Assembly (NCBI GenBank): GCA_947492585.1
Contig: CANLND010000011.1
Coordinates: 15,719-79,718, forward strand
From: an uncultured Rhodobacteraceae bacterium
GTDB lineage: Bacteria > Pseudomonadota > Alphaproteobacteria > Rhodobacterales > Rhodobacteraceae
Length of the DNA: 64,000 nt
Reading direction: 5' to 3'
Below the pieces are notes generated by a model. That model was not told the DNA's origin. It did no database searches and worked only from the letters and a program-made list of their open reading frames with translations. The first letter of the stretch is position 1; every line of letters begins with the position of its first letter. Below, one piece after another: positions 22,102 through 35,830 of the stretch. Position numbers and translations under genes: made by a program.

Positions 22102-22130
22102 TTGACGCCACGCAAAACCCTGCGTAAACC
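22102..22130 (+). promoter_or_regulatory. sigma70-type promoter of tRNA-Leu copy 1
   Basis: TTGACG-N17-TAAACC followed by a GC-rich discriminator. Confidence 0.6.
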
Positions 22131-22148
22131 CCGCCTCACGACATCTGT

Positions 22149-22235
22149 GCCCAGATGGCGGAATTGGTAGACGCGCTAGCTTCAGGTGCTAGTGTCCGTA
22201 AGGACGTGGAGGTTCGAGTCCTCTTCTGGGCACCA
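22149..22235 (+). tRNA. tRNA-Leu(CAG), copy 1
   Basis: 87 nt. Acceptor GCCCAGA/TCTGGGC+A+CCA, D-loop GGAATTGGTAGAC, anticodon arm CTAGC-TTCAGGT-GCTAG, long variable arm, GGTTCGAGTCC. Confidence 0.97.
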
Positions 22236-22366
22236 AATGTCTCATTTTCCCAACATTGCTGAATTCAGATAGCGAACGCGCATATGCGCCGGTTCGGATA
22301 ATTTGACGCCCGATCTGACCCTTTGCAGTCGACGTATAAATTCTCCAAATAACAGTCGTTTTTCGC

Positions 22367-22395
22367 TTGAAGCCCCTGATACCACTGCGTATATC
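22367..22395 (+). promoter_or_regulatory. sigma70-type promoter of tRNA-Leu copy 2
   Basis: TTGAAG-N17-TATATC followed by a GC-rich discriminator. Confidence 0.55.
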
Positions 22396-22413
22396 CAGCC
22401 CCACGATATCCGT

Positions 22414-22500
22414 GCCCAGATGGCGGAATTGGTAGACGCGCTAGCTTCAGGTGCTAGTGTCCGCAAGGACGTGGAGGTTCGAGTCCTCTTCTGGGCACCA
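22414..22500 (+). tRNA. tRNA-Leu(CAG), copy 2
   Basis: Identical to copy 1 except one base in the variable loop (GTAA vs GCAA); CCA is encoded. Confidence 0.97.
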
Positions 22501-22617
22501 CCTTCATGGTATTGTAAATTCCTAAAATCGATAACAAGACCGGCCAACTGGTTGAGTTTACCCACCAGACCTCTTATCTGCGCCCCATGTCCGCACGTCA
22601 GGCAAAGGAACGCAGTT

Positions 22618-23232
22618 TTGGCAAACCATCTTTATCAAAATGACCTGCCAGACGGTCTCTCGCTTGGGACAAGTGTTGCAATTGATTGCGAGACCATGGG
22701 GCTTCATCCGCATCGCGATCGGCTGTGCGTAGTGCAATTGTCCAGCGGTGATGGCGATGCACATATCGTACAGATTGCCAGAAACCAAACAGAGGCACCG
22801 AATCTCTGCGCCCTTTTGACCGACCCTAAGGTATTGAAACTGTTTCACTATGGCCGATTTGACATTGCGGCGCTGCTGCATGCTTTTGGCGCGCTGACCG
22901 CACCGGTCTATTGCACCAAGATCGCCAGCCGACTGGTGCGCACCTACACAGATCGGCACGGGCTGAAAAATTTGACACAGGATTTGCTCGGCATCGACAT
23001 TTCAAAACAGCAACAAATGAGCGACTGGGGCGCGGCCAAGCTGACCCCCGCCCAGCTGGACTATGCGGCGTCGGATGTATTGCACCTGCACCGACTGCAA
23101 AACGCGCTGAACAAACGCCTTGCGCGCGAAGATCGCACAGAGATCGCCCAAGCCTGTTTCGATTTTTTGCCAACCCGCGCCCGGCTGGATCTCGCGGGAT
23201 GGCCAGACACAGACATTTTCACACACTCCTAA
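22618..23232 (+). CDS. rnd: Ribonuclease D (short DEDDy 3'-5' exonuclease form)
   Basis: VAIDCETMG, KLFHYGRFD, CTKIASRL, QQMSDWG, YAASDV. TTG start at 22618 with AAGGA upstream. Confidence 0.9.
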   Translation: MANHLYQNDLPDGLSLGTSVAIDCETMGLHPHRDRLCVVQLSSGDGDAHIVQIARNQTEAPNLCALLTDPKVLKLFHYGRFDIAALLHAFGALTAPVYCTKIASRLVRTYTDRHGLKNLTQDLLGIDISKQQQMSDWGAAKLTPAQLDYAASDVLHLHRLQNALNKRLAREDRTEIAQACFDFLPTRARLDLAGWPDTDIFTHS

Positions 23233-26498: not shown

Positions 26499-27932
26499 TC
26501 AGCCGATATGTGCCCAAGGGCCAAACCCAAACATCAAATAATCTCGCTGGTAGATCGACATGCAGAGCGTCTCAAGCTCCGCATCGTAGATCTCGGACAG
26601 CTCATATGGCTGATCACTTGCAGCGCGCGGCACCCCACGCGCGGGCAGGCCCATTTTCTGCGCAACCATCGCAAGATCTGCCGCCATCTCATCCTCGCGC
26701 AGAACGAGGTCCGGCGCTGAAAATTCAGAAAACCCCGAAATAGCCTGCGCCTGGCTGGCCCAGCAGGCATCAACACGTATCGAAGTCTGGCCTGCGAGGT
26801 TCAGCTTGAGAAACTTCAAAAACGCTTCAAACGCGGCGCGATGTTGGGACCGATCATAGCTGCCATCTGGCGTCTGTTCAGGAAGCGGCAGATTGAATTT
26901 GCGGCGCAGTGTATTGCGAATCTTTAGAAACGCCTGTGGCCCTTTGTTCAATATTTTCTCACAGAACACGGTATGGGCCCGGGCCAAGGGATGCCGCACG
27001 ACGGTAAAGCTGCGGAACCCTGTGTGCGTTTGCATCCAGTGGCGCAGCTGTTTTTGATTCATTTTGGTGGCAAGGTCCGCGATTTCGATCCCATCCAACT
27101 CCGCCATCCAGTGCTGCACCTGCTGATCTGGCCCACCTTTGACAGGCAAAAACAACAAAGGCGCCTTGGTTGCAGCCACATAAGTGGGCACCGCCGGCCC
27201 ACGACGAGGTTCAAAATTGGGCGTGCGGGTCAGATTAAAACGATCCATGCCCGACAGAGCTTTGATCATCTCGTCAGTGTTGACGACCTTATCAGTAACC
27301 GGGGCCGGGTTTTGCCGTTTCAACGAGTCATCCAGCGCCTCAAGCTGATCTGACACGCCCAACCAGCGTGCCAAACCATTCATCACTGAGACATCCTGTA
27401 AATCCTCATAGGCCAAATAAAATGCAGACTGTCCGCTGCGTTGCAACTGCCCCATGATGTGGATCTGAAATTGCTGCAACGCATCGACATGCGCGGCAAA
27501 TTCTTCGGCATCAAACGTCGCCTGCGCCTCTTTGCGGCGTTTGACATTTGTCAGCTTCCACTGCCCTGTCTCCCGCGCAATTTTCCACGAAACATAGCTG
27601 TCCAGAGGATTTCGGGTCAGCACAATCTTGGCACAGCGTGGATCCTGCAACAGCAGGTCAAGCACACGTGGATCGTGATCATGGAAGTATCGAAACCCAG
27701 CCAACCCAGACGGGTCCTGCCGAATCGCCGCCAACAAAACCTGTGGCTCTTCTTCCCGCATGGTCTGCGTAATCCCCAACAGATCATCACGGTTGGGATA
27801 GCCAATAAAGTGCGGGTTAAAGGCCTCCCCATGGCAGGAGATCCCGTCAAATGCGTTTAGGTTGGCCTCAAGGAAGTTGGACCCGGTCCGCATTTCCGCA
27901 AAAACAACAAAAGTATCAAAATCTTGGGACAT
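26499..27932 (-). CDS. Two-domain sulfotransferase (NodH/Stf0-like N-domain plus Sulfotransfer_2-like C-domain)
   Basis: N-domain has 5'PSB-like MRTGSNFL and 3'PB-like LTRNPLDSYVS, plus YEDL. C-domain has LFLPVKGG, FTVVRHPLARA and terminal YQRDYLMFGF. Confidence 0.8.
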   Translation of the reverse strand: MSQDFDTFVVFAEMRTGSNFLEANLNAFDGISCHGEAFNPHFIGYPNRDDLLGITQTMREEEPQVLLAAIRQDPSGLAGFRYFHDHDPRVLDLLLQDPRCAKIVLTRNPLDSYVSWKIARETGQWKLTNVKRRKEAQATFDAEEFAAHVDALQQFQIHIMGQLQRSGQSAFYLAYEDLQDVSVMNGLARWLGVSDQLEALDDSLKRQNPAPVTDKVVNTDEMIKALSGMDRFNLTRTPNFEPRRGPAVPTYVAATKAPLLFLPVKGGPDQQVQHWMAELDGIEIADLATKMNQKQLRHWMQTHTGFRSFTVVRHPLARAHTVFCEKILNKGPQAFLKIRNTLRRKFNLPLPEQTPDGSYDRSQHRAAFEAFLKFLKLNLAGQTSIRVDACWASQAQAISGFSEFSAPDLVLREDEMAADLAMVAQKMGLPARGVPRAASDQPYELSEIYDAELETLCMSIYQRDYLMFGFGPWAHIG

Positions 27933-27938
27933 CGGGGC

Positions 27939-29642
27939 CTACTGAACAACATATGGTTTGCGTAACGAAGGCGAACCTTCGGCGGTGCGCGGGGGCGTAC
28001 CAACGGGAAAGTCCCCCATCAGATACGGGTGCATGCCCTGATTTTTCAGATCTTGCAGAAACTGCCCAAACCCATCGAGGTTCACCAGTTTGGGCGGCGC
28101 ATGCTGCGACAAGGCATCTGCCACGCCCATTTCACTAAGAATCGCCTGTAGGGGGTCGATGGGAGATTCGACAAATTCTGCCATGCTCCAGATCCGTATG
28201 CGGGCCTTGGCCCACCGCGAGCGCAATTGCGCTAGAAAGGCTGCCTCAACCTTTTGCAATCGAGCGGCTTCTTTGCGCAACAAGGCAAAGTCGTGATCAG
28301 AGCGGAATAACGGCACCGCCCATGCGCCAGCCACCACAGAAATCTGCGCATTCACGTCGTGGACCATCAGGTCTGCAATTTTTTGGGTGTCACGGGGACC
28401 AAACTGGAAACATTGTCGCGTGCCGCGGGCGTTCCACAGCAGGTTGGTCAGGTAACTGTTTGGATTGTAATCCCGAATGCCCGCATCATCTGATTGCGCA
28501 CCGCTGAGAATCTGTTGCCCCCCACAAAATTCGGCCCGCTCCGGCGCGAACAAATGGCCATGCACCTGGGCATTTGACACCTGGGCCAGCCAGGGTTCAA
28601 ACCCCTCAAACAGATCTGCAAAGCCCTGAAACACAGAATACGGTGCGACGGTCGAGCTTGCTTCGCCGCGCTGCGCGGGGAAGCGGCTTTGCATATATAG
28701 CCCAGCCCGTCCGCGCGTGCGCCGCTCCAATGCGCGGGCAAACACCCGATCAATTTTTCCCGGGCTGGGTTCAACGGGGTCCCCCGTAGGTTTTTCGTCA
28801 GAAAGAAATGCCTGATACAGCCCATCTGCGCGTGGCCAAATTTTGCGCGCAACAAAGCAGTCCGACCGACGCAGCAAACGCAGGTGGTCGTCATAAAACA
28901 CATGTGGTTTACCCTGATGGTCAAATTTGGACAGGGTCAGGGACCGGCTTTCGATCTGCGTCGAGTGGCGGCGCGCCAGGGTTTGAAAATAGCTTTCATC
29001 CGGGATCCAGACCCGTTTGAAATAGCGATCATACTGCGCCCGCTCAGGATCCTGCAAAATAGCCTTCAGCGTTTTGCGCGTCAGACACCACCATTGGCTG
29101 CCCATATGGGGCAACAGCCGACCGGGGATCTTGCGCCGCAGCCCCAATCGGCGCTGCATCCGCACATACCCATCAAAAAGGTGGCGATGTTTTTTCCACG
29201 AAAAGGGAAACCGCAGCGTAAAGCGTTCCGCGCTCAACCCGCCCACGGTCCACGGCACATCAGAGGTTGTCGCACTTTCGATAAAATCTGTGGTCGGGCG
29301 GGCCGCCAAATAGCCCACCAAATCGGAGACAGGGCGCAACGGCAGACAAGATCCCGATGTCAGAAAAACGTGATCCGCATTTGGCGCCTGCGTCAACAGC
29401 AGTTCCGCCGCTGATTGGGTTGCGGCCACAATACCCCACATGCCCCAGTCACACGTGTGGCGCTGGGAAAACCAGATCTGTGACACATCAGCCAGCTCAG
29501 CCCGGAACGCCTGAAACCGGTCTGCCTCTACCTTTTTGTCCACATGGATCACAACAGGACAGCCAGCTGTGGCCCAATGCCGGGCCACCTGCGCCGCGCG
29601 GTCAAAGTCGCTGTGAACCAGCATGATGATGCCAATGCTCAT
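27939..29642 (-). CDS. GT14 (Core-2/I-branching beta-1,6-GlcNAc transferase-like) protein with an extra C-terminal domain
   Basis: IMLVH, IHVDKK, DWGMWGIV, LTSGSCLPLRP, GSQWWCLTR, IPDESYFQT, FVARK; about 230 aa of C-terminal extension. Confidence 0.85.
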   Translation of the reverse strand: MSIGIIMLVHSDFDRAAQVARHWATAGCPVVIHVDKKVEADRFQAFRAELADVSQIWFSQRHTCDWGMWGIVAATQSAAELLLTQAPNADHVFLTSGSCLPLRPVSDLVGYLAARPTTDFIESATTSDVPWTVGGLSAERFTLRFPFSWKKHRHLFDGYVRMQRRLGLRRKIPGRLLPHMGSQWWCLTRKTLKAILQDPERAQYDRYFKRVWIPDESYFQTLARRHSTQIESRSLTLSKFDHQGKPHVFYDDHLRLLRRSDCFVARKIWPRADGLYQAFLSDEKPTGDPVEPSPGKIDRVFARALERRTRGRAGLYMQSRFPAQRGEASSTVAPYSVFQGFADLFEGFEPWLAQVSNAQVHGHLFAPERAEFCGGQQILSGAQSDDAGIRDYNPNSYLTNLLWNARGTRQCFQFGPRDTQKIADLMVHDVNAQISVVAGAWAVPLFRSDHDFALLRKEAARLQKVEAAFLAQLRSRWAKARIRIWSMAEFVESPIDPLQAILSEMGVADALSQHAPPKLVNLDGFGQFLQDLKNQGMHPYLMGDFPVGTPPRTAEGSPSLRKPYVVQ

Positions 29643-30649
29643 GCCCAGTTTCCCTTGGACATCAGGCCCAGAATCTCAAGCTGTCGCCAGTTGATGTACC
29701 GCTCGCTCCATTTGCACCACAGGTCGGGCTGCGCCTCCAGCTGGGCCGCGTAGGCTTTGTATTCGGCGGAACCGGCATAATGCTGTTCGCGCTGCGCCTC
29801 TTCGGCAGCCTTTGCAGAAAACGTGTCTAAAAATTTGGTATGCAGCAACATACCGCTGGCTTTTTCGCCACCATCCGCATCAAACACGTGGTTAAGTCCC
29901 CGCGGCAACAAGGTATGCGTAGAGCTGACATAGGCGTATCTGCGATCCCATTTGACCAAGGGCGTTTTGTTCAACGCCGGCGCTTTTTGGGGACGGTTGG
30001 CAAAAAAGGCCCGCATACGCACGCCCCCTTGGATCCACAGATTGCCGTAGGTGACATTGCGGCTGATCGTGTAATTTCCACTGTCAAACCAATGCGCAAT
30101 GTCCAACGGGTTCTGTCCCGATGCATAGGGGGTCTCGCCGATTTTGCCTTTGGGATAAAGGTCCAACAGCATGGCGGAAAAACTGCGGATCTCAGATGCA
30201 TCCAGCCAGTCCGTCAGCGCCTGCAACGGGCGGGTATCGCAGTAGGGATAGACAAACAGTTCATCCGGATCGACCACCAGCACCCAATGCCCATGGGCAT
30301 ATTTGCGTTTCAGATGGTTCATCCAATCAACACCAAAGGCGGCCCGTTTGTAGCTGGCGTCTGTGTGCCAGACCGACACATCCTGCATCCCTTGTAGATA
30401 TGCCTGACAGCCATCGGTGGAGCCATTGTCGACGATCAGAAAATGCCCCACCCCAAGATTACGATAGTAGTCCAGAAAATACGGCAAGCGGATCTGTTCA
30501 TTGCGCAGAGTGCAGACCAGCAAAATATCTTGTGGTTTTATCCGGGAGGTATTGTCCTGAACAGAAGTCAACTCGTGCGATTTTCGCAGTGCCCGCACAA
30601 TCTGGCGCTGGCGCCGCAGCCGCATCCGGTAAGATTGCCAAACACCCAA
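29639..30649 (-). CDS. Glycosyltransferase family 2 (Glyco_tranf_2_4-like), paralog A
   Basis: RNEQIRLPYFLDYY, HFLIVDNGSTDG, FGVDWMN, VVDPDE (DxD). Probable TTG start at 30649, uncertain; ATGA overlap with the GT14 gene. Confidence 0.85.
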   Translation of the reverse strand: MGVWQSYRMRLRRQRQIVRALRKSHELTSVQDNTSRIKPQDILLVCTLRNEQIRLPYFLDYYRNLGVGHFLIVDNGSTDGCQAYLQGMQDVSVWHTDASYKRAAFGVDWMNHLKRKYAHGHWVLVVDPDELFVYPYCDTRPLQALTDWLDASEIRSFSAMLLDLYPKGKIGETPYASGQNPLDIAHWFDSGNYTISRNVTYGNLWIQGGVRMRAFFANRPQKAPALNKTPLVKWDRRYAYVSSTHTLLPRGLNHVFDADGGEKASGMLLHTKFLDTFSAKAAEEAQREQHYAGSAEYKAYAAQLEAQPDLWCKWSERYINWRQLEILGLMSKGNWA

Positions 30650-30763
30650 AATGTGATCCAATCGGCTAGAAAACCGCACCTCGACGGCCGCGAGGGCCAA
30701 GTGCTTTGCATTAATAAGTATCAAAAACCCCATTGGGTTCAATGGATTTGCTGCATCTGCTTG

Positions 30764-31792
30764 CTACCAGTCACCACGTTGCATCAGCCCCAGCTGTTCA
30801 AGCTGCGCGCTGTCTTTGTATCGGACCGAGTCCGCGTGCCACAAATCCGGGCTCGCGATGACCTGATCGTAATAGTCCTGATAGCGGTCCACATAGGTGA
30901 AATGCTGCTGCCGAATCTTTTCTTCCTGAGATTTCGCAACCGCTTCGTTCAGGAATTTTGTGTGCAACAAAACACCCGTAGGCAGGCGCAACCGTGGATC
31001 AAACACCGCATTCAGCGCGCGTGGCAAGGCGGTGTGGGTCGAACTGACATACGCATCCCCCGCGTGCCAACGGATCAGTGGAGTTTTGTGCAGATGGGGC
31101 GCGTAGTCGGGCGTATCCGCAAAAAACATCCGTTTTCGAGGGCCGCCGCGAATAGAAATCTGCCCGTACCGAGGCAGGTACTCCCAAGTGTAATTTTGCG
31201 CATCAAACCAGTTCAGCGCCGCAAAAGGATCCGCACCGGGCTGATAGTCCTGCGCGCCAATCGGCCCCTTGGGGTACATATCCAACATCACCGCGCCAAA
31301 CGCGCGCTGGCCGCGTGTGTCCAACCATTGGGTCAGCGCCCGCAAATCGCGGTGCTCCATATCGGGATAGGTCAGGATTTCATCTGCGTCCAAAGTCAGA
31401 CACCACTGATCCCGCCCGTATTTGCGCTGCAACCCCATCAGCCAGTCGACGCCAAAGCGTGCCTTGCGATAGCTGGCAGACGTGCTCCAGATCGACACGT
31501 CAGGTTGGCGCGCCAAATAAGCGGTGGTGCCATCGTCGCTGTCGTTGTCGACGATCAAAAAATGCGAGATCCCAAGGCGTCTATGATGATCAAGAAAGAA
31601 CGGCAAACGCAGCATTTCGTTGCGCATGGTCGAGAAACACAGAATCGGATCACGGCCAATCGTGCTGGTGCGATCTAATACAGGACGCAGCTGGGCCGCA
31701 GCGCGTCTGGCGCGCCACAGCAATTTTTTACGCCGAAGTCGAAGATGATAGGCCGCAAGCCCGCTCAGCTTTGTCTGAAAACGGCTGTTCAA
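30764..31792 (-). CDS. Glycosyltransferase family 2 (Glyco_tranf_2_4-like), paralog B
   Basis: RNEMLRLPFFLDHH, HFLIVDNDSDDG, FGVDWLM, TLDADE. Probable TTG start overlapping the galE stop (TTGA), uncertain. Confidence 0.85.
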   Translation of the reverse strand: MNSRFQTKLSGLAAYHLRLRRKKLLWRARRAAAQLRPVLDRTSTIGRDPILCFSTMRNEMLRLPFFLDHHRRLGISHFLIVDNDSDDGTTAYLARQPDVSIWSTSASYRKARFGVDWLMGLQRKYGRDQWCLTLDADEILTYPDMEHRDLRALTQWLDTRGQRAFGAVMLDMYPKGPIGAQDYQPGADPFAALNWFDAQNYTWEYLPRYGQISIRGGPRKRMFFADTPDYAPHLHKTPLIRWHAGDAYVSSTHTALPRALNAVFDPRLRLPTGVLLHTKFLNEAVAKSQEEKIRQQHFTYVDRYQDYYDQVIASPDLWHADSVRYKDSAQLEQLGLMQRGDW

Positions 31793-32772
31793 GTCTCGTA
31801 GTGGCCGGTCTGGTGCCACTTCCATGCATCCGCAATCATCAGATCCAATGTGGAGCGTTTTGGCTCCCAGCCCAGATCGGTCACCGCACGTGTGGAGCCT
31901 GACACCAGTTTGGTGCAATCCCCTGCGCGGCGATCCCCGACATTATAGGGCACGGTTTCATTGGTCACAGCGCGCGAATGATCGATCACTTCCATCACCG
32001 AAAATCCAGACCCCGTGCCAAGATTAAACACCTGGCTGCCCTTGCTGTCTTCAAGCCACTTCAGACCCAGAACATGGGCGTCGACCAGATCGCAAACGTG
32101 CACATAATCACGAATACAGGTGCCATCGGGCGTGTCGTAGTCGGTGCCAAAAACAGTCAGCGCGTCACGCTCACCTTTGATCGCCTGCAACATCAATGGG
32201 ATCAGATGGGTTTCGGGCTGGTGGAATTCACCCACCTCCGCCTCGGGATCCGCGCCAGCCACATTAAAGTAGCGAAAGATCACTGAGCGCAGACCATAGG
32301 CGGCTTCGAAATCTTTCAGGATGTCTTCGACCGCGCGTTTGCTGGCGCCATAGGCATTCAACGGCTGCTGCGGTGTCTGTTCATCCAGCACCACGTTGTC
32401 GTGCTCACCGTAGGTGGCGCAGGTGGACGAGAACACAAAATCAAGACACCCTGCGGCAACGGCTGCTTCGATCAGCTGCAACGACCCGCCCACATTGTTG
32501 GCCCAATAGCGGCCCGGCTCGCTCATGGCTTCGCCAACCTGGCTGAGGGCTGCAAAGTGCATGACAGCGATGGGCTGATATTTTTCAAACACCGCATCCA
32601 GACGGGCGCGGTCAGTCAGATCGCCCTGTTCAAAGGGGCCAAATTTGACAGCATCCTGCCACCCCGTCACGAGATTATCATAGGTGACGGGGGTATAGCC
32701 TGCGGCTTTGAGCGCCTTACAGGCGTGTGAGCCGATATAACCGGCGCCGCCGGTAACCAGAACATTCTTCAA
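31789..32772 (-). CDS. galE: UDP-glucose 4-epimerase
   Basis: GGAGYIGSH, HFAALSQVGE, FSSTCATYG, YGASK, RYFNVAGA, RDYVHV. Confidence 0.96.
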   Translation of the reverse strand: MKNVLVTGGAGYIGSHACKALKAAGYTPVTYDNLVTGWQDAVKFGPFEQGDLTDRARLDAVFEKYQPIAVMHFAALSQVGEAMSEPGRYWANNVGGSLQLIEAAVAAGCLDFVFSSTCATYGEHDNVVLDEQTPQQPLNAYGASKRAVEDILKDFEAAYGLRSVIFRYFNVAGADPEAEVGEFHQPETHLIPLMLQAIKGERDALTVFGTDYDTPDGTCIRDYVHVCDLVDAHVLGLKWLEDSKGSQVFNLGTGSGFSVMEVIDHSRAVTNETVPYNVGDRRAGDCTKLVSGSTRAVTDLGWEPKRSTLDLMIADAWKWHQTGHYET

Positions 32773-32826
32773 GTCTTTATTCCTATCTCACACACCCATG
32801 CAGGGGACCGTTGTGGGAAGGTCGCC

Positions 32827-33720
32827 CTATTGGGCGGCCTTATCAATTTGAGCAACTTCCTGGATGTAGCCCATCAGATCCTCGCGCAGATCTTCACGGG
32901 CCAACGCAAACGCAACTGTGGCTTGCAGGAAGCCTGCTTTGGAACCGCAATCAAACCGCTGACCGCGGAATCGCAGGCCGTAAACCGGCACATCGGCGGC
33001 GATATCTTTGGCAATTGCATCCGTCAGCTGAATTTCACCGCCGGCACCTTCTTTTTTCTCGTTCAGGTTGGTCAAAACGGACGGCGCCAGAATGTAACGA
33101 CCGATCACAGCCAGATTGGAGGGCGCGTCTTCGGCTTTGGGTTTTTCAACCATGCCACGTGCCTCAACAACGTTCCCCATGTCTTTTTTGACATCCAAAA
33201 CGCCATAAGACGAGGTCTGCGCGGGCGAGACTTCCATGGTTGCAACCATGTTGCCGCCGGTCTCTTCGTAGGCTTCAACCATCTGTTGCAAGCAGGGCTT
33301 TTCAGCGGCAATTACATCGTCGGGCAAAATCACCGCAAACGGTTCATCGCCAATCAAACGACGGGCGCACCATACCGCGTGCCCCAGACCCAAGGCCTGG
33401 TGTTGACGTACATAAGCAATGGCACCGGAATCCATGTTGGTGTGTTGCAGCACCTCCATCAGGTCATCTTTGCCTTTGCGGCGCAGCTCCTGCTCCAGAA
33501 CGGGGCTGTGGTCAAAATAGTCTTCCAACGCGCCTTTGCCGCGCGAGGTGACAAAAATAAACTCTTCAATACCAGCGGCACGGGCTTCGTCGATCGCGTA
33601 TTGAACCAGCGGACGATCAACCAATGTCATGATCTCTTTTGGAACAGATTTGGTGGCCGGCAGGAACCGCGTCCCCAGACCTGCAACTGGGAAAATTGCT
33701 TTTGTAACTTTTCTGCGCAT
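32827..33720 (-). CDS. galU: UTP-glucose-1-phosphate uridylyltransferase
   Basis: AIFPVAGLGTRFLPATK, LGLGHAV, MVEKP, GEIQLTDA, FDCGSK. Start at ATG 33720. Confidence 0.96.
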   Translation of the reverse strand: MRRKVTKAIFPVAGLGTRFLPATKSVPKEIMTLVDRPLVQYAIDEARAAGIEEFIFVTSRGKGALEDYFDHSPVLEQELRRKGKDDLMEVLQHTNMDSGAIAYVRQHQALGLGHAVWCARRLIGDEPFAVILPDDVIAAEKPCLQQMVEAYEETGGNMVATMEVSPAQTSSYGVLDVKKDMGNVVEARGMVEKPKAEDAPSNLAVIGRYILAPSVLTNLNEKKEGAGGEIQLTDAIAKDIAADVPVYGLRFRGQRFDCGSKAGFLQATVAFALAREDLREDLMGYIQEVAQIDKAAQ

Positions 33721-34086
33721 TACTCGCTCTCTTTCATATTCCGTATCTACGCACACGATCATGCTAGGCGGCACCCCCACCCGATACGGTTTCAACGTTC
33801 TATCGACACACAAACCACGCCCAGACTTTCGCTGGACCTCTGTGCCCGTCTTGGCGGAGGTTGATGCACCTCCGAATTCCTTAAACCGCCCTTGTAACCG
33901 CTAGGCTACAAAGTCGGCATTTGCCAACGCGATCCTTTGTTTGCCTCTACAAAGCATGACTGACGATACCCGAATAGGTGGAGTTCAGTTTCAGTAATAC
34001 TTTACATCTTAAATGGACAACTTTTGGGCAAAACTCCGCGAATTCCGCAAACAAGAGGCAGAATCGCAGAGTCTCCTGTGACTTTT

Positions 34087-34884
34087 TTACGGCTGTTTCA
34101 GCTCAACACCGGGTGTGCAGGCGATAAAGAACGGATTCGCAAAACCGTCCTTGCCGTAGGTCAGCGGCGTGTGATCGTCAAAACGAACAACTTTGCCTCC
34201 CGCTCCCCGCAGGACTGCATCACCTGCTGCGGTGTCCCACTCCATTGTCCGGCCCACACGTGGGTACAGGTCAGCCTCACCTGTCGCGACAAGGCAGAAT
34301 TTCAAAGACGAGCCTGCGCTTTTGCTGTCTTTTACGCTGTATTTGCCGATATACGCATCCGTCGCCTGATCACGGTGTGATTTCGACGCCACAACCATCA
34401 ATGCAGCATTGTCACTGTCGGCAACACGGATCGGGTTGATCGGACCTTGGACGTTGGGGTCAAACGCGCCGGTTTCTTCGACGGCAGTGCCATCCGCAAG
34501 CGTAAAGAACATCCGATCGCGCGCGGGTGCATACACAACTCCACGAGTCGGGACACCGCCTTCAACCAGAGCAATATTAACGGTGAAATCGCCGCGACGG
34601 TGAATGAACTCTTTGGTGCCATCCAATGGGTCAACGATCAGAAATGTATCGCCTTTTGCCGTATGCGATGCGGCTTGTTCTTCGGTTACCAGCATCATGT
34701 CAGGAAAGGCCGCGCGCAGCCCGGCTGAAATCAGCGCGTCTGCAGCTTCATCCGCAGCCGTAACAGGGCTGTCGTCGGATTTGACTTTCACATCAAAGCT
34801 GTCCGAATTGTAGATTTCCATGATTTTGGCACCGGCTTCGATGGCCAGCTTTCGGATCACAGGCACCAGATCATCATAGGTCAT
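34087..34884 (-). CDS. cysQ: 3'(2'),5'-bisphosphate nucleotidase CysQ
   Basis: SPVTAAD, EE, VDPLDGTKEF, SKSH, GSSLKFC, TMEWDTAAG. Start about 34884. Confidence 0.95.
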   Translation of the reverse strand: MTYDDLVPVIRKLAIEAGAKIMEIYNSDSFDVKVKSDDSPVTAADEAADALISAGLRAAFPDMMLVTEEQAASHTAKGDTFLIVDPLDGTKEFIHRRGDFTVNIALVEGGVPTRGVVYAPARDRMFFTLADGTAVEETGAFDPNVQGPINPIRVADSDNAALMVVASKSHRDQATDAYIGKYSVKDSKSAGSSLKFCLVATGEADLYPRVGRTMEWDTAAGDAVLRGAGGKVVRFDDHTPLTYGKDGFANPFFIACTPGVELKQP

Positions 34885-35005
34885 CACAAATCTCCGTGAG
34901 TTAAGGGCATGTTGAAAACAAGGGTTGCGCACCTTATGCTTTGATCGCAACGGATCAGCAAGAAGTCCGTGGTATTTAGATCCGCAGGCAATTCAATCGG
35001 TACAA

Positions 35006-35830
35006 ATGTTTAATCAACGTCGCAAAGGCAATTCGACCTTCCTTGGTTTTCTAACCATGTGCGAAGTTGTGTTCCATGCTGTGGTGCGCAGCGTACGTTC
35101 AAAACACAATAACGCGCTGGTCGCTCTTGGCCTGAATATGCTGCAAGCGCTTATGTTTGTTTCGATTTTTTACCTGATGTTTTCGATTTTGGGGATGAAA
35201 GGCGGCGCCGTTCGCGGGGACTTCCTGCTGTATGTGATGTCTGGCGTTTTCCTATTCCTGACCCATACCAAAGCCGTCAGCGCAGTGTCCGGCGCCGAGG
35301 GGCCAAGCAGCCCAATGATGCAACACGCGCCAATGAATACGATTGTGGCGATTCTTTCAGCAGCACTGGGATCACTCTACATTCAGACGCTTTCGCTGCT
35401 ATTGATCCTGTTTGGGTATCACGTTGCCTTTACCCCGGTCGAAATCGTCGATCCAATTTCGTCTTATGCCATGGTCCTGTTGGCCTGGCTCACAGGATCC
35501 TGTGTGGGTCTTATTCTATTGGTGCTGAAACCTTGGGCGCCCAGCCTTGTTGGGATCATGTCGACCATCTATCAGCGCGCGAATATGATTGCCTCGGGCA
35601 AGATGTTTCTCGCCAATTCGCTACCTAGTTTTATGCTGGCGATGTTTGACTGGAACCCGCTGTTTCACTGTATTGATCAGGCGCGCGGTTACATTTTCAA
35701 GAACTACAATCCGCATTTCAGCAGCTGGAAGTATGCCCTGACGGTCGCCTTGATCCTGTTTGTGATCGGGCTGATGGGAGAGTTTTACACCCGCAAGAAT
35801 GCCTCGATCAGTTGGAGCGCCAAGCGATAG
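35006..35830 (+). CDS. ABC-2 type permease, KpsM-like capsule export protein
   Basis: About six TM helices, SGKMF, WNPLFHCID..RG. Start moved to ATG 35006. Confidence 0.8.
   Translation: MFNQRRKGNSTFLGFLTMCEVVFHAVVRSVRSKHNNALVALGLNMLQALMFVSIFYLMFSILGMKGGAVRGDFLLYVMSGVFLFLTHTKAVSAVSGAEGPSSPMMQHAPMNTIVAILSAALGSLYIQTLSLLLILFGYHVAFTPVEIVDPISSYAMVLLAWLTGSCVGLILLVLKPWAPSLVGIMSTIYQRANMIASGKMFLANSLPSFMLAMFDWNPLFHCIDQARGYIFKNYNPHFSSWKYALTVALILFVIGLMGEFYTRKNASISWSAKR

What the first reader, a model, noticed from the sequence alone, without database searches (positions are those of the whole stretch)
26499..35830. Candidate sulfated surface-glycan biosynthesis system
The co-oriented genes cysQ, galU, galE, GT2, GT2, GT14 and the sulfotransferase include tight couplings (TTGA at 31789-31792, ATGA at 29639-29642, a 6-bp gap), and a KpsM-like permease is divergent from cysQ. 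Established: GalU/GalE supply UDP-Glc/Gal, and CysQ removes PAP, the inhibitory by-product of PAPS-dependent sulfotransferases. GT14 branching enzymes and Sulfotransfer_2 enzymes are best known from animal mucin and glycosaminoglycan synthesis. Inference: the cell makes a branched, sulfated capsule, LPS-linked glycan or glycoprotein decoration that may mimic marine eukaryote glycans. The locus sits among core genes with no mobile element, which suggests a vertically inherited trait.
Basis: partly seen in the sequence, partly recalled or inferred. Interest (0 to 1): 0.7.

Follow-up and report, generated by a model that had tools for sequence, protein, structure and literature searches.

The report
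Roseobacter-wide sulfated glycan operon
This is a real gene cluster, inherited vertically and kept almost unchanged across hundreds of marine roseobacter species, that most likely builds a sulfate-decorated cell-envelope sugar structure which nobody has yet identified chemically.

Summary
The window carries, on the minus strand, cysQ, galU, galE, two PF13704 glycosyltransferases, a GT14 (Branch)+DUF5927 fusion and a sulfotransferase. The stated couplings are present (TTGA, ATGA, a 6-bp gap), and a distant KpsM-like permease lies divergent from cysQ.

New points:
- The GT2_4–GT14/DUF5927–sulfotransferase triad is the invariant core. It is adjacent in 77/78 and 77/77 of 80 roseobacter loci, and at least 598 GTDB species carry the GT14 gene.
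- The whole super-locus persists in the most distant Rhodobacterales lineages sampled, so inheritance is vertical.
- The sulfotransferase has two domains: an N-terminal NodH-type domain with intact PAPS motifs, and a C-terminal Sulfotransfer_2-like domain with a degenerate 5'-phosphosulfate loop.
- In most relatives kdsB (CMP-Kdo synthetase) is coupled to cysQ. This window lacks it.
- No KpsT/E/D/C/S and no PAPS-synthesis genes are in the window.
- All the enzymes lack transmembrane segments.

Best reading: a cytoplasmically assembled, PAPS-sulfated envelope glycoconjugate conserved across the family. Whether it is a KpsM-exported polysaccharide or an LPS-core structure is unresolved. Mimicry of eukaryotic glycans is unsupported. 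No functional study was found, and no chemistry or expression could be tested here.

The parts
26499..27932 (-). Two-domain sulfotransferase (477 aa). The N-terminal domain (about residues 1-235) is NodH/Stf0-type. The C-terminal domain (about residues 250-477) is Sulfotransfer_2-like.
   Evidence: Pfam Sulfotransfer_2, E 2e-9, residues 298-470. A profile of homologs hits PDB 9vki 'LPS sulfotransferase NodH' at E 3.4e-8, with the motifs aligned. Foldseek top hits are Stf0, TPST and 3-OST. R15-T16-G17-S18, R107, S112 and S115 are invariant. The C-domain loop is P263-x-x-G-G-P-D/E, without the family Lys/Thr/Ser.
27939..29642 (-). GT14 (Core-2/I-branching type) glycosyltransferase fused to DUF5927 (567 aa). 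It is the ortholog of R. pomeroyi SPO0035.
   Evidence: Pfam Branch 70.7 bits and DUF5927 469 bits. Foldseek finds C2GnT-L and XylT1 at E about 1e-9 to 1e-10 for the N-domain. DUF5927 is found in only 246 representative clusters, in full-length representatives always from about residue 266 of a ~565-aa fusion; the shorter hits look like fragments. SPO0035 is named in PMC8319176.
29639..30742 (-). GT2a, a PF13704 (Glyco_tranf_2_4) GT-A glycosyltransferase. Its stop overlaps the GT14 start (ATGA). By homology the likely start is near 30643.
   Evidence: Pfam 115 bits. It lies immediately upstream of GT14 in 77/77 loci, at 65-78% identity. Overlap read.
30764..31792 (-). GT2b, a second PF13704 paralog (the ORF runs to 31918). 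A TTG at 31792 overlaps the galE stop (TTGA).
   Evidence: Pfam 114.6 bits, with a sub-threshold GT92 hit at E 0.023. Present in 36/68 loci; the other loci carry a GT4 plus a PF00535 GT2 instead.
31789..32772 (-). galE, UDP-glucose 4-epimerase
   Evidence: TIGR01179, 414.9 bits against a cutoff of 262.3. In the locus in 50/68 relatives.
32827..33720 (-). galU, UTP-glucose-1-phosphate uridylyltransferase (the ORF extends to 33813; the likely start is MRRKVTK at 33720)
   Evidence: TIGR01099, 332.2 bits against a cutoff of 326.8. In the locus in 57/68 relatives. Start inferred by comparison with L008/L024.
33721..34086 (.). Non-coding gap of 366 bp between cysQ and galU. Most relatives carry kdsB (and sometimes a GT2) at this position.
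   Evidence: Sequence read. kdsB follows cysQ in at least 52 loci but gives no hit anywhere in the window. The CTP_transf_3 assignment is.
34087..34884 (-). cysQ, 3'(2'),5'-bisphosphate nucleotidase (PAP phosphatase). The ORF extends to 34950.
   Evidence: TIGR01331, 261.9 bits against a cutoff of 228.8. In the locus in 65/68 relatives.
34912..34961 (.). Conserved back-to-back promoter-like elements that share overlapping -10 boxes. TTGCTG-N17-CATAAG points towards cysQ and TTGAAA-N17-TATGCT points towards the kpsM-like gene.
   Evidence: The cysQ-side motif is in 58/70 loci and the kpsM-side motif in 44/70. These are consensus matches only, so function is inferred.
35006..35830 (+). Orphan KpsM-like ABC-2 permease (the ORF starts at 34925). 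It is the ortholog of R. pomeroyi SPO0040.
   Evidence: NCBIfam VexB 2e-14 and KpsM 6e-8, both below cutoff. PDB KpsM 8tsh_C at E 0.0033 over residues 48-283. Several TM-like hydrophobic stretches in four regions. Divergent from cysQ in 65/68 loci.
35573..35725 (-). Match to Rfam 'Ruegeria cis2 sRNA', antisense to the 3' part of the KpsM-like gene
   Evidence: RF02645, 71.3 bits against a gathering score of 50, full length. In R. pomeroyi cis2 is antisense to SPO0040 and was RT-qPCR validated (PMC4809877). The match could simply reflect conservation of the coding sequence.

Best explanation
The locus is a vertically inherited operon, present across the Rhodobacterales, for a sulfated cell-envelope glycoconjugate assembled on the cytoplasmic side of the inner membrane.

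Proposed steps (all inferred unless marked otherwise):
1. GalU and GalE supply UDP-glucose and UDP-galactose. These are family assignments above curated cutoffs; their role in this pathway is inferred.
2. One or two PF13704 GT-A transferases and the GT14 enzyme extend an acceptor. The acceptor is unknown. I infer that it is lipid-linked and Kdo-bearing, because kdsB sits in the same operon in most relatives.
3. The NodH-type domain of the tandem sulfotransferase transfers sulfate from PAPS. The PAPS motifs are intact; activity and substrate are inferred.
4. CysQ hydrolyses the inhibitory by-product PAP. This is established biochemistry for the family.

The GT2_4, GT14-DUF5927 and sulfotransferase genes are the invariant functional core. 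The remaining glycosyltransferases vary between two cassette types, which suggests a conserved inner part and a lineage-specific outer part.

My preferred export route, held with low confidence, is the orphan KpsM-like ABC-2 permease working with an ATPase encoded elsewhere. That would make the product a conserved, completed-in-cytoplasm polysaccharide comparable to a 'common antigen' or a group-2-like capsule. An LPS-core product is nearly as likely.

DUF5927 and the C-terminal Sulfotransfer_2-like domain look like degenerate sulfotransferase-type modules. They may bind substrate or partner proteins rather than catalyse (tentative).
For: - Family assignments.
- Translational couplings read from the sequence.
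- At least 598 species carry the GT14 gene.
- The triad is adjacent in 77/78 and 77/77 loci. cysQ and the divergent kpsM-like gene are in the locus in 65/68.
- The triad stays intact in rearranged loci.
- R. pomeroyi has a contiguous cysQ-kdsB-GT-GT-GT14-sulfoT run with gaps of 0-160 bp.
- The same super-locus is present in the distant lineages Amylibacter, a MAG and 'Maritalea'.
- The N-domain is homologous to NodH and its PAPS motifs are invariant.
- The GT14 fold is confirmed.
- None of the enzymes has a TM-like segment, while the KpsM-like protein has several TM-like hydrophobic stretches.
- The KpsM-like protein matches solved KpsM over its full length.
- A conserved bidirectional promoter region joins the kpsM-like gene and cysQ.
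- Sulfated O-polysaccharides have been reported from the Rhodobacteraceae genus Poseidonocella. I saw only the titles, as cited in PMC7281560 and PMC9912281.
Against: - There are no chemical, genetic or expression data. No RNA runs exist for this organism, and no functional paper was found.
- No KpsT, KpsE, KpsD, KpsC or KpsS, and no PAPS-synthesis genes, were found among the Pfam-scanned large ORFs of the window (a handful of ORFs were not scanned) or in the annotated flanks of related loci.
- The KpsM assignment is sub-threshold.
- The glycosyltransferases are 65-78% identical between genera, which is unusually conserved for a surface polysaccharide.
- A relative (L038) lacks the sulfotransferase but keeps cysQ and the GTs.
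- The only roseobacter LOS structure I could read (Loktanella rosea) has no hexose and no sulfate (PMC3210612).
- In this window kdsB is absent and cysQ is separated from galU by 366 bp.
Confidence: 0.55

Rival explanations
1. The product is the LPS (LOS) core. The GTs extend lipid A-Kdo with Glc/Gal, the NodH-like enzyme sulfates the core as S. meliloti LpsS sulfates LPS, and MsbA and Lpt export it. On this view the KpsM-like gene is unrelated.
For: - kdsB lies inside the operon in at least 52 relatives.
- galU and galE are classical suppliers of core sugars.
- Many sources name the orthologs 'LPS sulfotransferase NodH', and the N-domain matches PDB 9vki, which carries that name.
- The high cross-genus conservation is typical of inner-core enzymes.
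- lptA/B(/C) are adjacent in 63/75 loci, and lpxL plus waaA are adjacent in L083.
Against: - The Loktanella rosea LOS core is only Kdo2 plus Neu, with no hexose or sulfate, whereas Loktanella loci carry the triad (L039, L049, L060).
- Adjacency to lptCAB is no stronger than adjacency to dnaK, which reflects general synteny.
- waaA or lpxL is nearby in only 1-2 of 85 loci.
- This reading leaves the conserved promoter-sharing KpsM-like gene unexplained.
Confidence: 0.25
2. The product is a small sulfated glycolipid or oligosaccharide, analogous to trehalose sulfate/sulfolipid (Stf0) or to sulfated Nod factor (NodH), and not a polymer or an LPS part.
For: The closest structural and sequence relatives of the catalytic domain are Stf0 and NodH, both of which act on small glycans. 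Only 3-4 GTs are present. No polymer-export machinery is adjacent.
Against: I know of no sulfated glycolipid described from roseobacters; I ran no search aimed at such lipids. The variable GT cassettes and the KpsM-like/kdsB linkage fit an envelope glycan better.
Confidence: 0.1
3. The genes are merely syntenic housekeeping neighbours. cysQ, galU and galE serve general metabolism, the GT/sulfotransferase triad has some unrelated role, and there is no integrated 'system'.
For: galU and galE are missing from the locus in R. pomeroyi and others. cysQ is retained where the sulfotransferase is lost (L038). In this window cysQ is 366 bp away from galU. The triad occurs without the other genes in L026, L050 and L027.
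Against: The triad itself is translationally coupled and invariant. cysQ-kdsB directly abuts the GTs in R. pomeroyi, in the same orientation with tiny gaps. A PAP phosphatase next to a PAPS-dependent enzyme in 65/68 loci is a functionally meaningful pairing.
Confidence: 0.1
4. The locus was acquired from, or evolved to mimic, marine eukaryotes (animal-type GT14 and Sulfotransfer_2), giving a mucin- or GAG-like decoy glycan.
For: The best solved-structure matches of the GT14 domain are mammalian C2GnT-L and XylT1. The Pfam families are best known from animals.
Against: Composition is native. There is no mobile element. Inheritance is strictly vertical across the order. The intact catalytic sulfotransferase domain is the bacterial NodH type. 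DUF5927 fusions are confined to a narrow bacterial family.
Confidence: 0.05

Closest known systems
Sinorhizobium meliloti LpsS (LPS sulfotransferase) and NodH (Nod-factor sulfotransferase), with CysQ-type PAP removal
   Same: It is an alphaproteobacterial, cytoplasmic, PAPS-dependent NodH-family sulfotransferase acting on a glycoconjugate. The N-domain aligns with solved 'LPS sulfotransferase NodH' 9vki, and the 5'-PSB (RxGS) and 3'-PB (R...S) motifs are conserved.
   Different: Here the enzyme carries an extra Sulfotransfer_2-like domain. It is translationally coupled to a GT14-DUF5927 fusion and a PF13704 GT. It is a core, family-wide gene rather than a symbiosis gene. The substrate is unknown.
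ABC-transporter-dependent (group 2, Kps) capsules of E. coli, and rhizobial K-antigens, including the sulfated capsule of Mesorhizobium loti (KpsS sulfotransferase; from memory)
   Same: There is a KpsM homolog. In relatives a CMP-Kdo synthetase (a KpsU analogue) lies next to it. All biosynthetic enzymes are cytoplasmic, so the glycan would be completed and sulfated before export.
   Different: No KpsT, KpsE, KpsD, KpsC or KpsS is in the window or in any examined flank. The KpsM match is below family thresholds. The GTs are conserved across genera instead of being serotype-variable.
Pseudomonas aeruginosa common polysaccharide antigen (CPA; Wzm/Wzt pathway)
   Same: The concept is the same: a conserved, cytoplasmically built glycan shared across a whole taxon and exported through an ABC-2 permease.
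   Different: The GT families differ, CPA is not sulfated, and its Wzt ATPase is adjacent. The comparison is by analogy only (own knowledge).
Animal GT14 enzymes (C2GnT-L, xylosyltransferase 1) and Golgi Sulfotransfer_2 enzymes
   Same: The fold and the Pfam family of the GT14 domain match (E about 1e-9). The C-domain passes the Sulfotransfer_2 gathering score (38 bits against 22).
   Different: The bacterial proteins are soluble and cytoplasmic, with no signal anchor. GT14 is fused to the bacteria-specific DUF5927. The Sulfotransfer_2-like domain lacks the family's PKTGGTS-type loop.

Membership tests
NodH/Stf0-type PAPS-dependent sulfotransferase | 5'-phosphosulfate-binding loop (RxGS/T) after strand 1, and a 3'-phosphate-binding R...S motif | tested here: met
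   R15-T16-G17-S18, R107, S112 and S115 are invariant in 27-28 orthologs. They align to the ARSGSS and ILERxxxLASYSS motifs of PDB 9vki.
NodH/Stf0-type PAPS-dependent sulfotransferase | Sulfotransferase fold | tested here: met
   AF2 model with mean pLDDT 79. Foldseek top hits are Stf0, TPST and 3-OST at probability 1.0.
NodH/Stf0-type PAPS-dependent sulfotransferase | PAPS-dependent sulfate transfer to a carbohydrate | not testable with these tools
   This needs an enzyme assay.
Sulfotransfer_2 (PF03567) | Score above the Pfam gathering threshold | tested here: met
   38.4 bits against 22, but only profile positions 73-251 are matched.
Sulfotransfer_2 (PF03567) | 5'-PSB loop with catalytic Lys and Ser/Thr (a PKTGGTS-type motif, recalled from own knowledge) | tested here: inconclusive
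   The loop reads P263-[VILAM]-[KRQA]-G-G-P-[DE]. The Lys position is hydrophobic and the Ser/Thr positions are Pro and an acidic residue. The 3'-PB-like R313-H-P-x-x-R318 is conserved.
GT14 (Core-2/I-branching, PF02485) | Domain above the gathering score, with the GT-A fold of C2GnT/XylT | tested here: met
   70.7 bits against 23.4. Foldseek finds C2GnT-L at 5.5e-10 and XylT1 at 1.8e-9.
GT14 (Core-2/I-branching, PF02485) | Beta-1,6 branching (or any specific) linkage and donor sugar | not testable with these tools
   'Branched' rests only on the family name. GT14 members use UDP-GlcNAc, UDP-Xyl or UDP-GlcA (own knowledge).
Kps (group 2) ABC-transporter-dependent capsule system | KpsM permease | tested here: inconclusive
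   NCBIfam KpsM gives 33 bits against a cutoff of 300, and VexB 54 against 297. Pfam ABC2_membrane E 0.28. PDB KpsM E 0.0033 over the full length.
Kps (group 2) ABC-transporter-dependent capsule system | KpsT ATPase adjacent to or paired with KpsM | tested here: not met
   No ABC ATPase lies next to the permease in the window or in loci L081 and L083-L085. The rest of the genome could not be searched.
Kps (group 2) ABC-transporter-dependent capsule system | KpsE/KpsD export proteins and KpsC/KpsS Kdo-linker transferases | tested here: not met
   None was found among the Pfam-scanned large ORFs of the 64-kb window (a handful were not scanned) or in the annotated flanks of relatives. Presence elsewhere in the genome is not testable.
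CysQ, GalU and GalE equivalogs | Score above the NCBIfam equivalog cutoffs | tested here: met
   CysQ 261.9 against 228.8; GalU 332.2 against 326.8; GalE 414.9 against 262.3.
LPS-core biosynthesis locus | Co-location with waaA/lpx genes, and a core that contains the sugars supplied | tested here: inconclusive
   kdsB is in the operon in at least 52 relatives. waaA and lpxL are adjacent only in L083 and L014. The published Loktanella rosea LOS lacks hexose and sulfate.

The most novel reading that the evidence does not exclude
Roseobacters make a family-wide, conserved, glycosaminoglycan-like sulfated polymer. One possibility is a keratan-sulfate-like repeat of Gal and a GT14-added beta-linked sugar. 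It would be built by alternating PF13704/GT92-like and GT14 transferases, and sulfated by an enzyme complex in which DUF5927 and the C-terminal Sulfotransfer_2-like domain are pseudo-sulfotransferase scaffolds that couple chain growth to sulfation. Such a 'roseobacter common antigen' would be a major unrecognised sink of sulfate ester and a determinant of phage and algal interactions in the ocean.
Probability: 0.1. Interest if true: 0.8.

Novelty: new variant of a known kind. Interest (0 to 1): 0.5.

Why it matters
Roseobacters are among the most abundant and best-studied marine heterotrophs, and they live attached to algae and particles. A sulfated envelope glycan encoded by a near-universal, strongly conserved operon would be a defining cell-surface trait of the group. 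It would bear on attachment, biofilm and rosette formation, recognition by phages and gene transfer agents, and interactions with algal hosts, and it would be a previously uncounted pool of organic sulfate esters.

The locus is directly testable in genetically tractable models. In R. pomeroyi it corresponds to SPO0034-SPO0040, and Phaeobacter and Dinoroseobacter could also be used.

At the protein level it offers three things to study: an uncharacterised domain (DUF5927) that may be a degenerate sulfotransferase module, an unusual tandem sulfotransferase, and an orphan KpsM-like permease with a validated antisense RNA in R. pomeroyi.

Tried and rejected
1. A CtrA-like box (TTAA-N7-TTGA) in the cysQ/kpsM intergenic region occurs only in the window (1 of 70 loci), so it is a chance match.
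2. RNA evidence for co-transcription could not be obtained. No RNA run holds the window sequence. Only one marine metagenome holds 16% of its words.
3. Ten literature searches found no functional study (DUF5927; NodH or sulfotransferase with roseobacter or Ruegeria; SPO0033-38; Poseidonocella; Loktanella; LpsS). The only mention is SPO0035 listed as a roseobacter-specific orthologous group.
4. Simple promoter and terminator scans within the cluster were at background level: 5 promoter-like sites against 6.1 expected, and 19 terminator-like sites against 13.5 +/- 3.7. They were not used to define transcription units.
5. I looked for kdsB remnants and for kpsT/E/D/C/S or cysDN/cysC in the window. 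None was found.
6. The first hhalign run of DUF5927 against the sulfotransferase, using shallow alignments, was insignificant (probability 1.3%). With a more diverse alignment it reached E 4.8e-4 and probability 32%. I treat this as tentative only. No similarity to the C-domain was found.
7. ABC transporters downstream of the sulfotransferase in Ruegeria-type loci are type-1 half-transporters unrelated to KpsT.
8. A membrane GT2 sits next to the triad in Roseovarius loci. It is lineage-specific and I did not pursue it.

Full report
**Observation**

On the minus strand:
- 26499-27932: a 477-aa sulfotransferase.
- 27939-29642: a 567-aa protein with a Branch/GT14 domain followed by DUF5927.
- 29639-30742 and 30764-31918: two PF13704 (Glyco_tranf_2_4) glycosyltransferases.
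- 31789-32772: galE.
- 32827-33813: galU.
- 34087-34950: cysQ.

GalE, GalU and CysQ all score above the NCBIfam equivalog cutoffs.

On the plus strand, 34925-35830 encodes a multi-pass membrane protein. It resembles KpsM/VexB only weakly: it has no Pfam hit, its NCBIfam scores are far below cutoff, and it matches solved KpsM 8tsh_C over its full length at E 0.0033.

The three couplings are in the sequence exactly as stated: TTGA at 31789-31792, ATGA at 29639-29642, and a 6-bp gap at 27933-27938.

There are two corrections. First, comparison with orthologs places the galU start at about 33720, so cysQ and galU are separated by about 366 non-coding bases rather than being coupled. Second, the permease has no ATPase partner nearby.

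The flanks are housekeeping genes: lptA, lptB, hpf and ptsN on one side, and alkB, dnaK and dnaJ on the other (dnaK/dnaJ were recognised from their translations). G+C content is uniform, and no transposase or integrase appeared in the Pfam scans.

**Distribution and synteny**

The GT14-DUF5927 protein has thousands of close homologs. All the named ones come from Roseobacteraceae/Paracoccaceae.

I ran tblastn of the window proteins against the 80 best loci. Each count is out of the loci with enough sequence on that side:

| Feature | Count |
|---|---|
| Sulfotransferase directly after GT14 (median gap 6 nt) | 77/78 |
| PF13704 GT directly before GT14 | 77/77 |
| cysQ and the divergent kpsM-like gene within 10 kb | 65/68 |
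| galU in the locus | 57/68 |
| galE in the locus | 50/68 |
| Second PF13704 paralog | 36/68 |
| ptsN-hpf-lptB-lptA on the far side | 63/75 |

- Loci without the second PF13704 paralog carry a GT4 and a PF00535 GT2 instead, in 33-35 loci. The cluster therefore has an invariant core and two alternative accessory cassettes.
- In rearranged loci the triad stays together although the neighbours change.
- One species, Roseobacter sp. MH60115 (L038), has lost the sulfotransferase cleanly but keeps the GTs, cysQ and the permease.
- To reach distant members I searched DUF5927 alone against 1.84 billion representative proteins. Only 246 clusters match. Full-length representatives all carry the domain from about residue 266 of a ~565-aa Branch fusion, down to 25-30% identity; the shorter hits look like fragments.
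- The contexts of three distant members keep the same order (Amylibacter, an unnamed MAG, and a record labelled Maritalea mobilis). The order is kpsM-like | cysQ-kdsB-(GT2)-galU-(GT4)-GT2_4-GT14/DUF5927-sulfotransferase | ptsN-hpf-lptB-lptA-lptC.
- Vertical inheritance is therefore well supported.

**kdsB**

In at least 52 of the 80 loci a CMP-Kdo synthetase gene (CTP_transf_3) follows cysQ with no gap. In R. pomeroyi DSS-3 the run cysQ-kdsB-GT2_4-GT2_4-GT14(SPO0035)-sulfotransferase is contiguous and co-oriented, with no galU or galE. The window has no kdsB anywhere in its 64 kb. Here the gene has been lost from this position, leaving the 366-bp gap.

**The sulfotransferase**

An alignment of 27 orthologs shows two domains.
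- The N-terminal ~235 residues carry an invariant R-T-G-S loop after the first strand and an invariant R107...S112/S115 motif. A profile of the family hits the solved 'LPS sulfotransferase NodH' (9vki) at E 3.4e-8, with these motifs aligned.
- An AlphaFold model (mean pLDDT 79) finds Stf0, tyrosylprotein sulfotransferases and heparan 3-O-sulfotransferases as its best structural matches.
- The C-terminal domain is the part Pfam calls Sulfotransfer_2. Only profile positions 73-251 match.
- In the C-domain, the loop where that family has its phosphosulfate-binding Lys/Thr/Ser reads P-[hydrophobic]-[K/R/Q/A]-G-G-P-[D/E] instead. An R-H-P-x-x-R motif is conserved.
- I therefore regard the NodH-type domain as the likely catalyst. 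The activity of the second domain is uncertain.

**GT14-DUF5927 and the GT2_4 proteins**

- The N-domain of the model matches murine C2GnT-L and human xylosyltransferase 1 at E about 1e-9 to 1e-10.
- The C-terminal part of DUF5927 is modelled with pLDDT around 80 as an alpha/beta domain. Its strand-helix order parallels that of the NodH-type domain.
- A profile-profile comparison with a diverse DUF5927 alignment gives E 4.8e-4 (probability 32%) against residues 23-108 of the NodH-type domain. VHGxLFxP aligns with CHGEAFNPH. DUF5927 has no Arg at the position that aligns with the 3'-phosphate-binding Arg. That alignment starts after the RxGS loop; in the earlier, insignificant alignment DUF5927 has a two-residue gap in place of that loop.
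- This suggests, tentatively, that DUF5927 is a degenerate sulfotransferase-like module.
- The PF13704 proteins have the DNxSxDG and DxDE signatures of GT-A enzymes and a very basic N-terminal helix. GT2b has a sub-threshold GT92 hit.
- None of the enzymes has a transmembrane-like segment. Assembly and sulfation must therefore happen in the cytoplasm, where PAPS is available.

**Regulatory features**

The cysQ/kpsM-like intergenic region is 105-154 nt long in 70 loci and contains a conserved block. It reads as two back-to-back sigma-70-like promoters whose -10 hexamers overlap on opposite strands:
- TTGCTG-N17-CATAAG points towards cysQ (58/70 loci).
- TTGAAA-N17-TATGCT points towards the permease (44/70 loci).

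These are consensus matches, not demonstrated promoters.

Rfam's 'Ruegeria cis2 sRNA' matches 35573-35725 on the minus strand, antisense to the permease gene. In R. pomeroyi this RNA is antisense to SPO0040, an 'ABC transporter permease', and was validated by RT-qPCR (PMC4809877).

**What it most likely does**

The economical reading is an operon for a sulfated envelope glycoconjugate:
- sugar-nucleotide supply by GalU and GalE, and by KdsB in relatives;
- three to four cytoplasmic glycosyltransferases;
- a PAPS-dependent sulfotransferase;
- PAP removal by CysQ.

The acceptor and the export route are open.

Points favouring an ABC-2-exported polysaccharide:
- the conserved KpsM-like gene that shares a promoter region with the operon;
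- the KpsU-like position of kdsB;
- the cytoplasmic location of all the enzymes.

Points favouring an LPS-core product:
- kdsB, galU and galE;
- the 'LPS sulfotransferase' family;
- the high cross-genus conservation of the GTs (65-78% identity), which is unusual for surface polysaccharides.

Points against each:
- Against the capsule reading: no KpsT/E/D/C/S was seen in any flank.
- Against the LPS-core reading: the only roseobacter LOS structure I could read, from Loktanella rosea, has a core of two Kdo and one neuraminic acid, with no hexose or sulfate (PMC3210612). I did not verify that this strain carries the cluster.

Sulfated O-polysaccharides have been reported from Poseidonocella, another Rhodobacteraceae genus. 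I saw only the titles, as cited. No paper linking genes to such a product in roseobacters was found.

**Comparison and novelty**

The parts belong to known families, and PAPS-dependent sulfation of LPS and capsule is known in rhizobia (my own knowledge). New here are:
- the fixed triad architecture;
- the tandem sulfotransferase;
- the DUF5927 fusion;
- the orphan permease;
- the order-wide conservation.

I class it as a new variant of a known kind. The claim of mimicry of eukaryotic glycans has no support.

**Verdict**

Confidence that the core triad makes a sulfated glycoconjugate is about 0.55, and the choice between polysaccharide and LPS core is close to even. Interest is moderate (0.5). 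The system is real, conserved, uncharacterised and easily testable in an ecologically important group, but nothing about its product has been shown.

Noticed in passing
window 35573-35725 (-): Full-length match (71.3 bits) to Rfam RF02645 'Ruegeria cis2 sRNA', antisense to the 3' part of the KpsM-like gene. In R. pomeroyi cis2 is antisense to SPO0040 and was RT-qPCR validated (PMC4809877). The match may partly reflect conservation of the coding sequence.
   Followed up: partly
window 34912-34961: Conserved back-to-back promoter-like elements between cysQ and the kpsM-like gene, with overlapping -10 boxes on opposite strands. The cysQ-side motif is in 58/70 related loci and the kpsM-side motif in 44/70. 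A conserved GAATTCTTGC block lies upstream.
   Followed up: partly
window 33721-34086: A 366-bp non-coding gap sits where at least 52 related loci carry kdsB (CMP-Kdo synthetase) coupled to cysQ. No kdsB is found anywhere in the 64-kb window.
   Followed up: partly
L038:11698-11725 (Roseobacter sp. MH60115): A natural clean loss of the sulfotransferase gene. GT14 is followed directly by ptsN, while the GTs, cysQ and the kpsM-like gene remain. This strain is a ready-made comparison.
   Followed up: no
window 27942-28847 (-), DUF5927 domain: DUF5927 shows weak profile similarity (hhalign E 4.8e-4, probability 32%) and the same secondary-structure order as the NodH-type domain of the neighbouring sulfotransferase, and it lacks the 3'-phosphate-binding Arg at the aligned position; the 5'-PSB loop lies outside the significant alignment. 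It may be a pseudo-sulfotransferase module.
   Followed up: partly
window 22102-22235 and 22367-22500 (+): Tandem 134-nt direct repeat (90% identity, 265-nt spacing), each copy containing a tRNA-Leu(CAG). The second copy overlaps the annotated start of the 3'-5' exonuclease ORF (22303-23232), so that ORF probably starts later.
   Followed up: partly
L024, L084, L085 and about 33 other loci, against the window: There are two alternative accessory cassettes in the cluster. One is a second PF13704 paralog (as in the window, Ruegeria, Leisingera and Roseovarius). The other is a PF00535 GT2 after kdsB plus a GT4 before GT2a (Sulfitobacter, Loktanella and Amylibacter).
   Followed up: partly
L050:14079-15962 and L027:10855-12738: In Roseovarius-type rearranged loci the triad is followed by a 627-aa membrane GT2 (Glyco_trans_2_3) and a ~500-600-aa ORF. 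These could be periplasmic-glucan (Opg-like) genes; this was not checked.
   Followed up: no
L083:16989-19123: In a distant MAG, a lipid A acyltransferase (PF03279) and a Kdo transferase (Glycos_transf_N) lie next to the rnd-like exonuclease gene that flanks lptC beside the cluster. This LPS neighbourhood is not seen in most other loci.
   Followed up: partly
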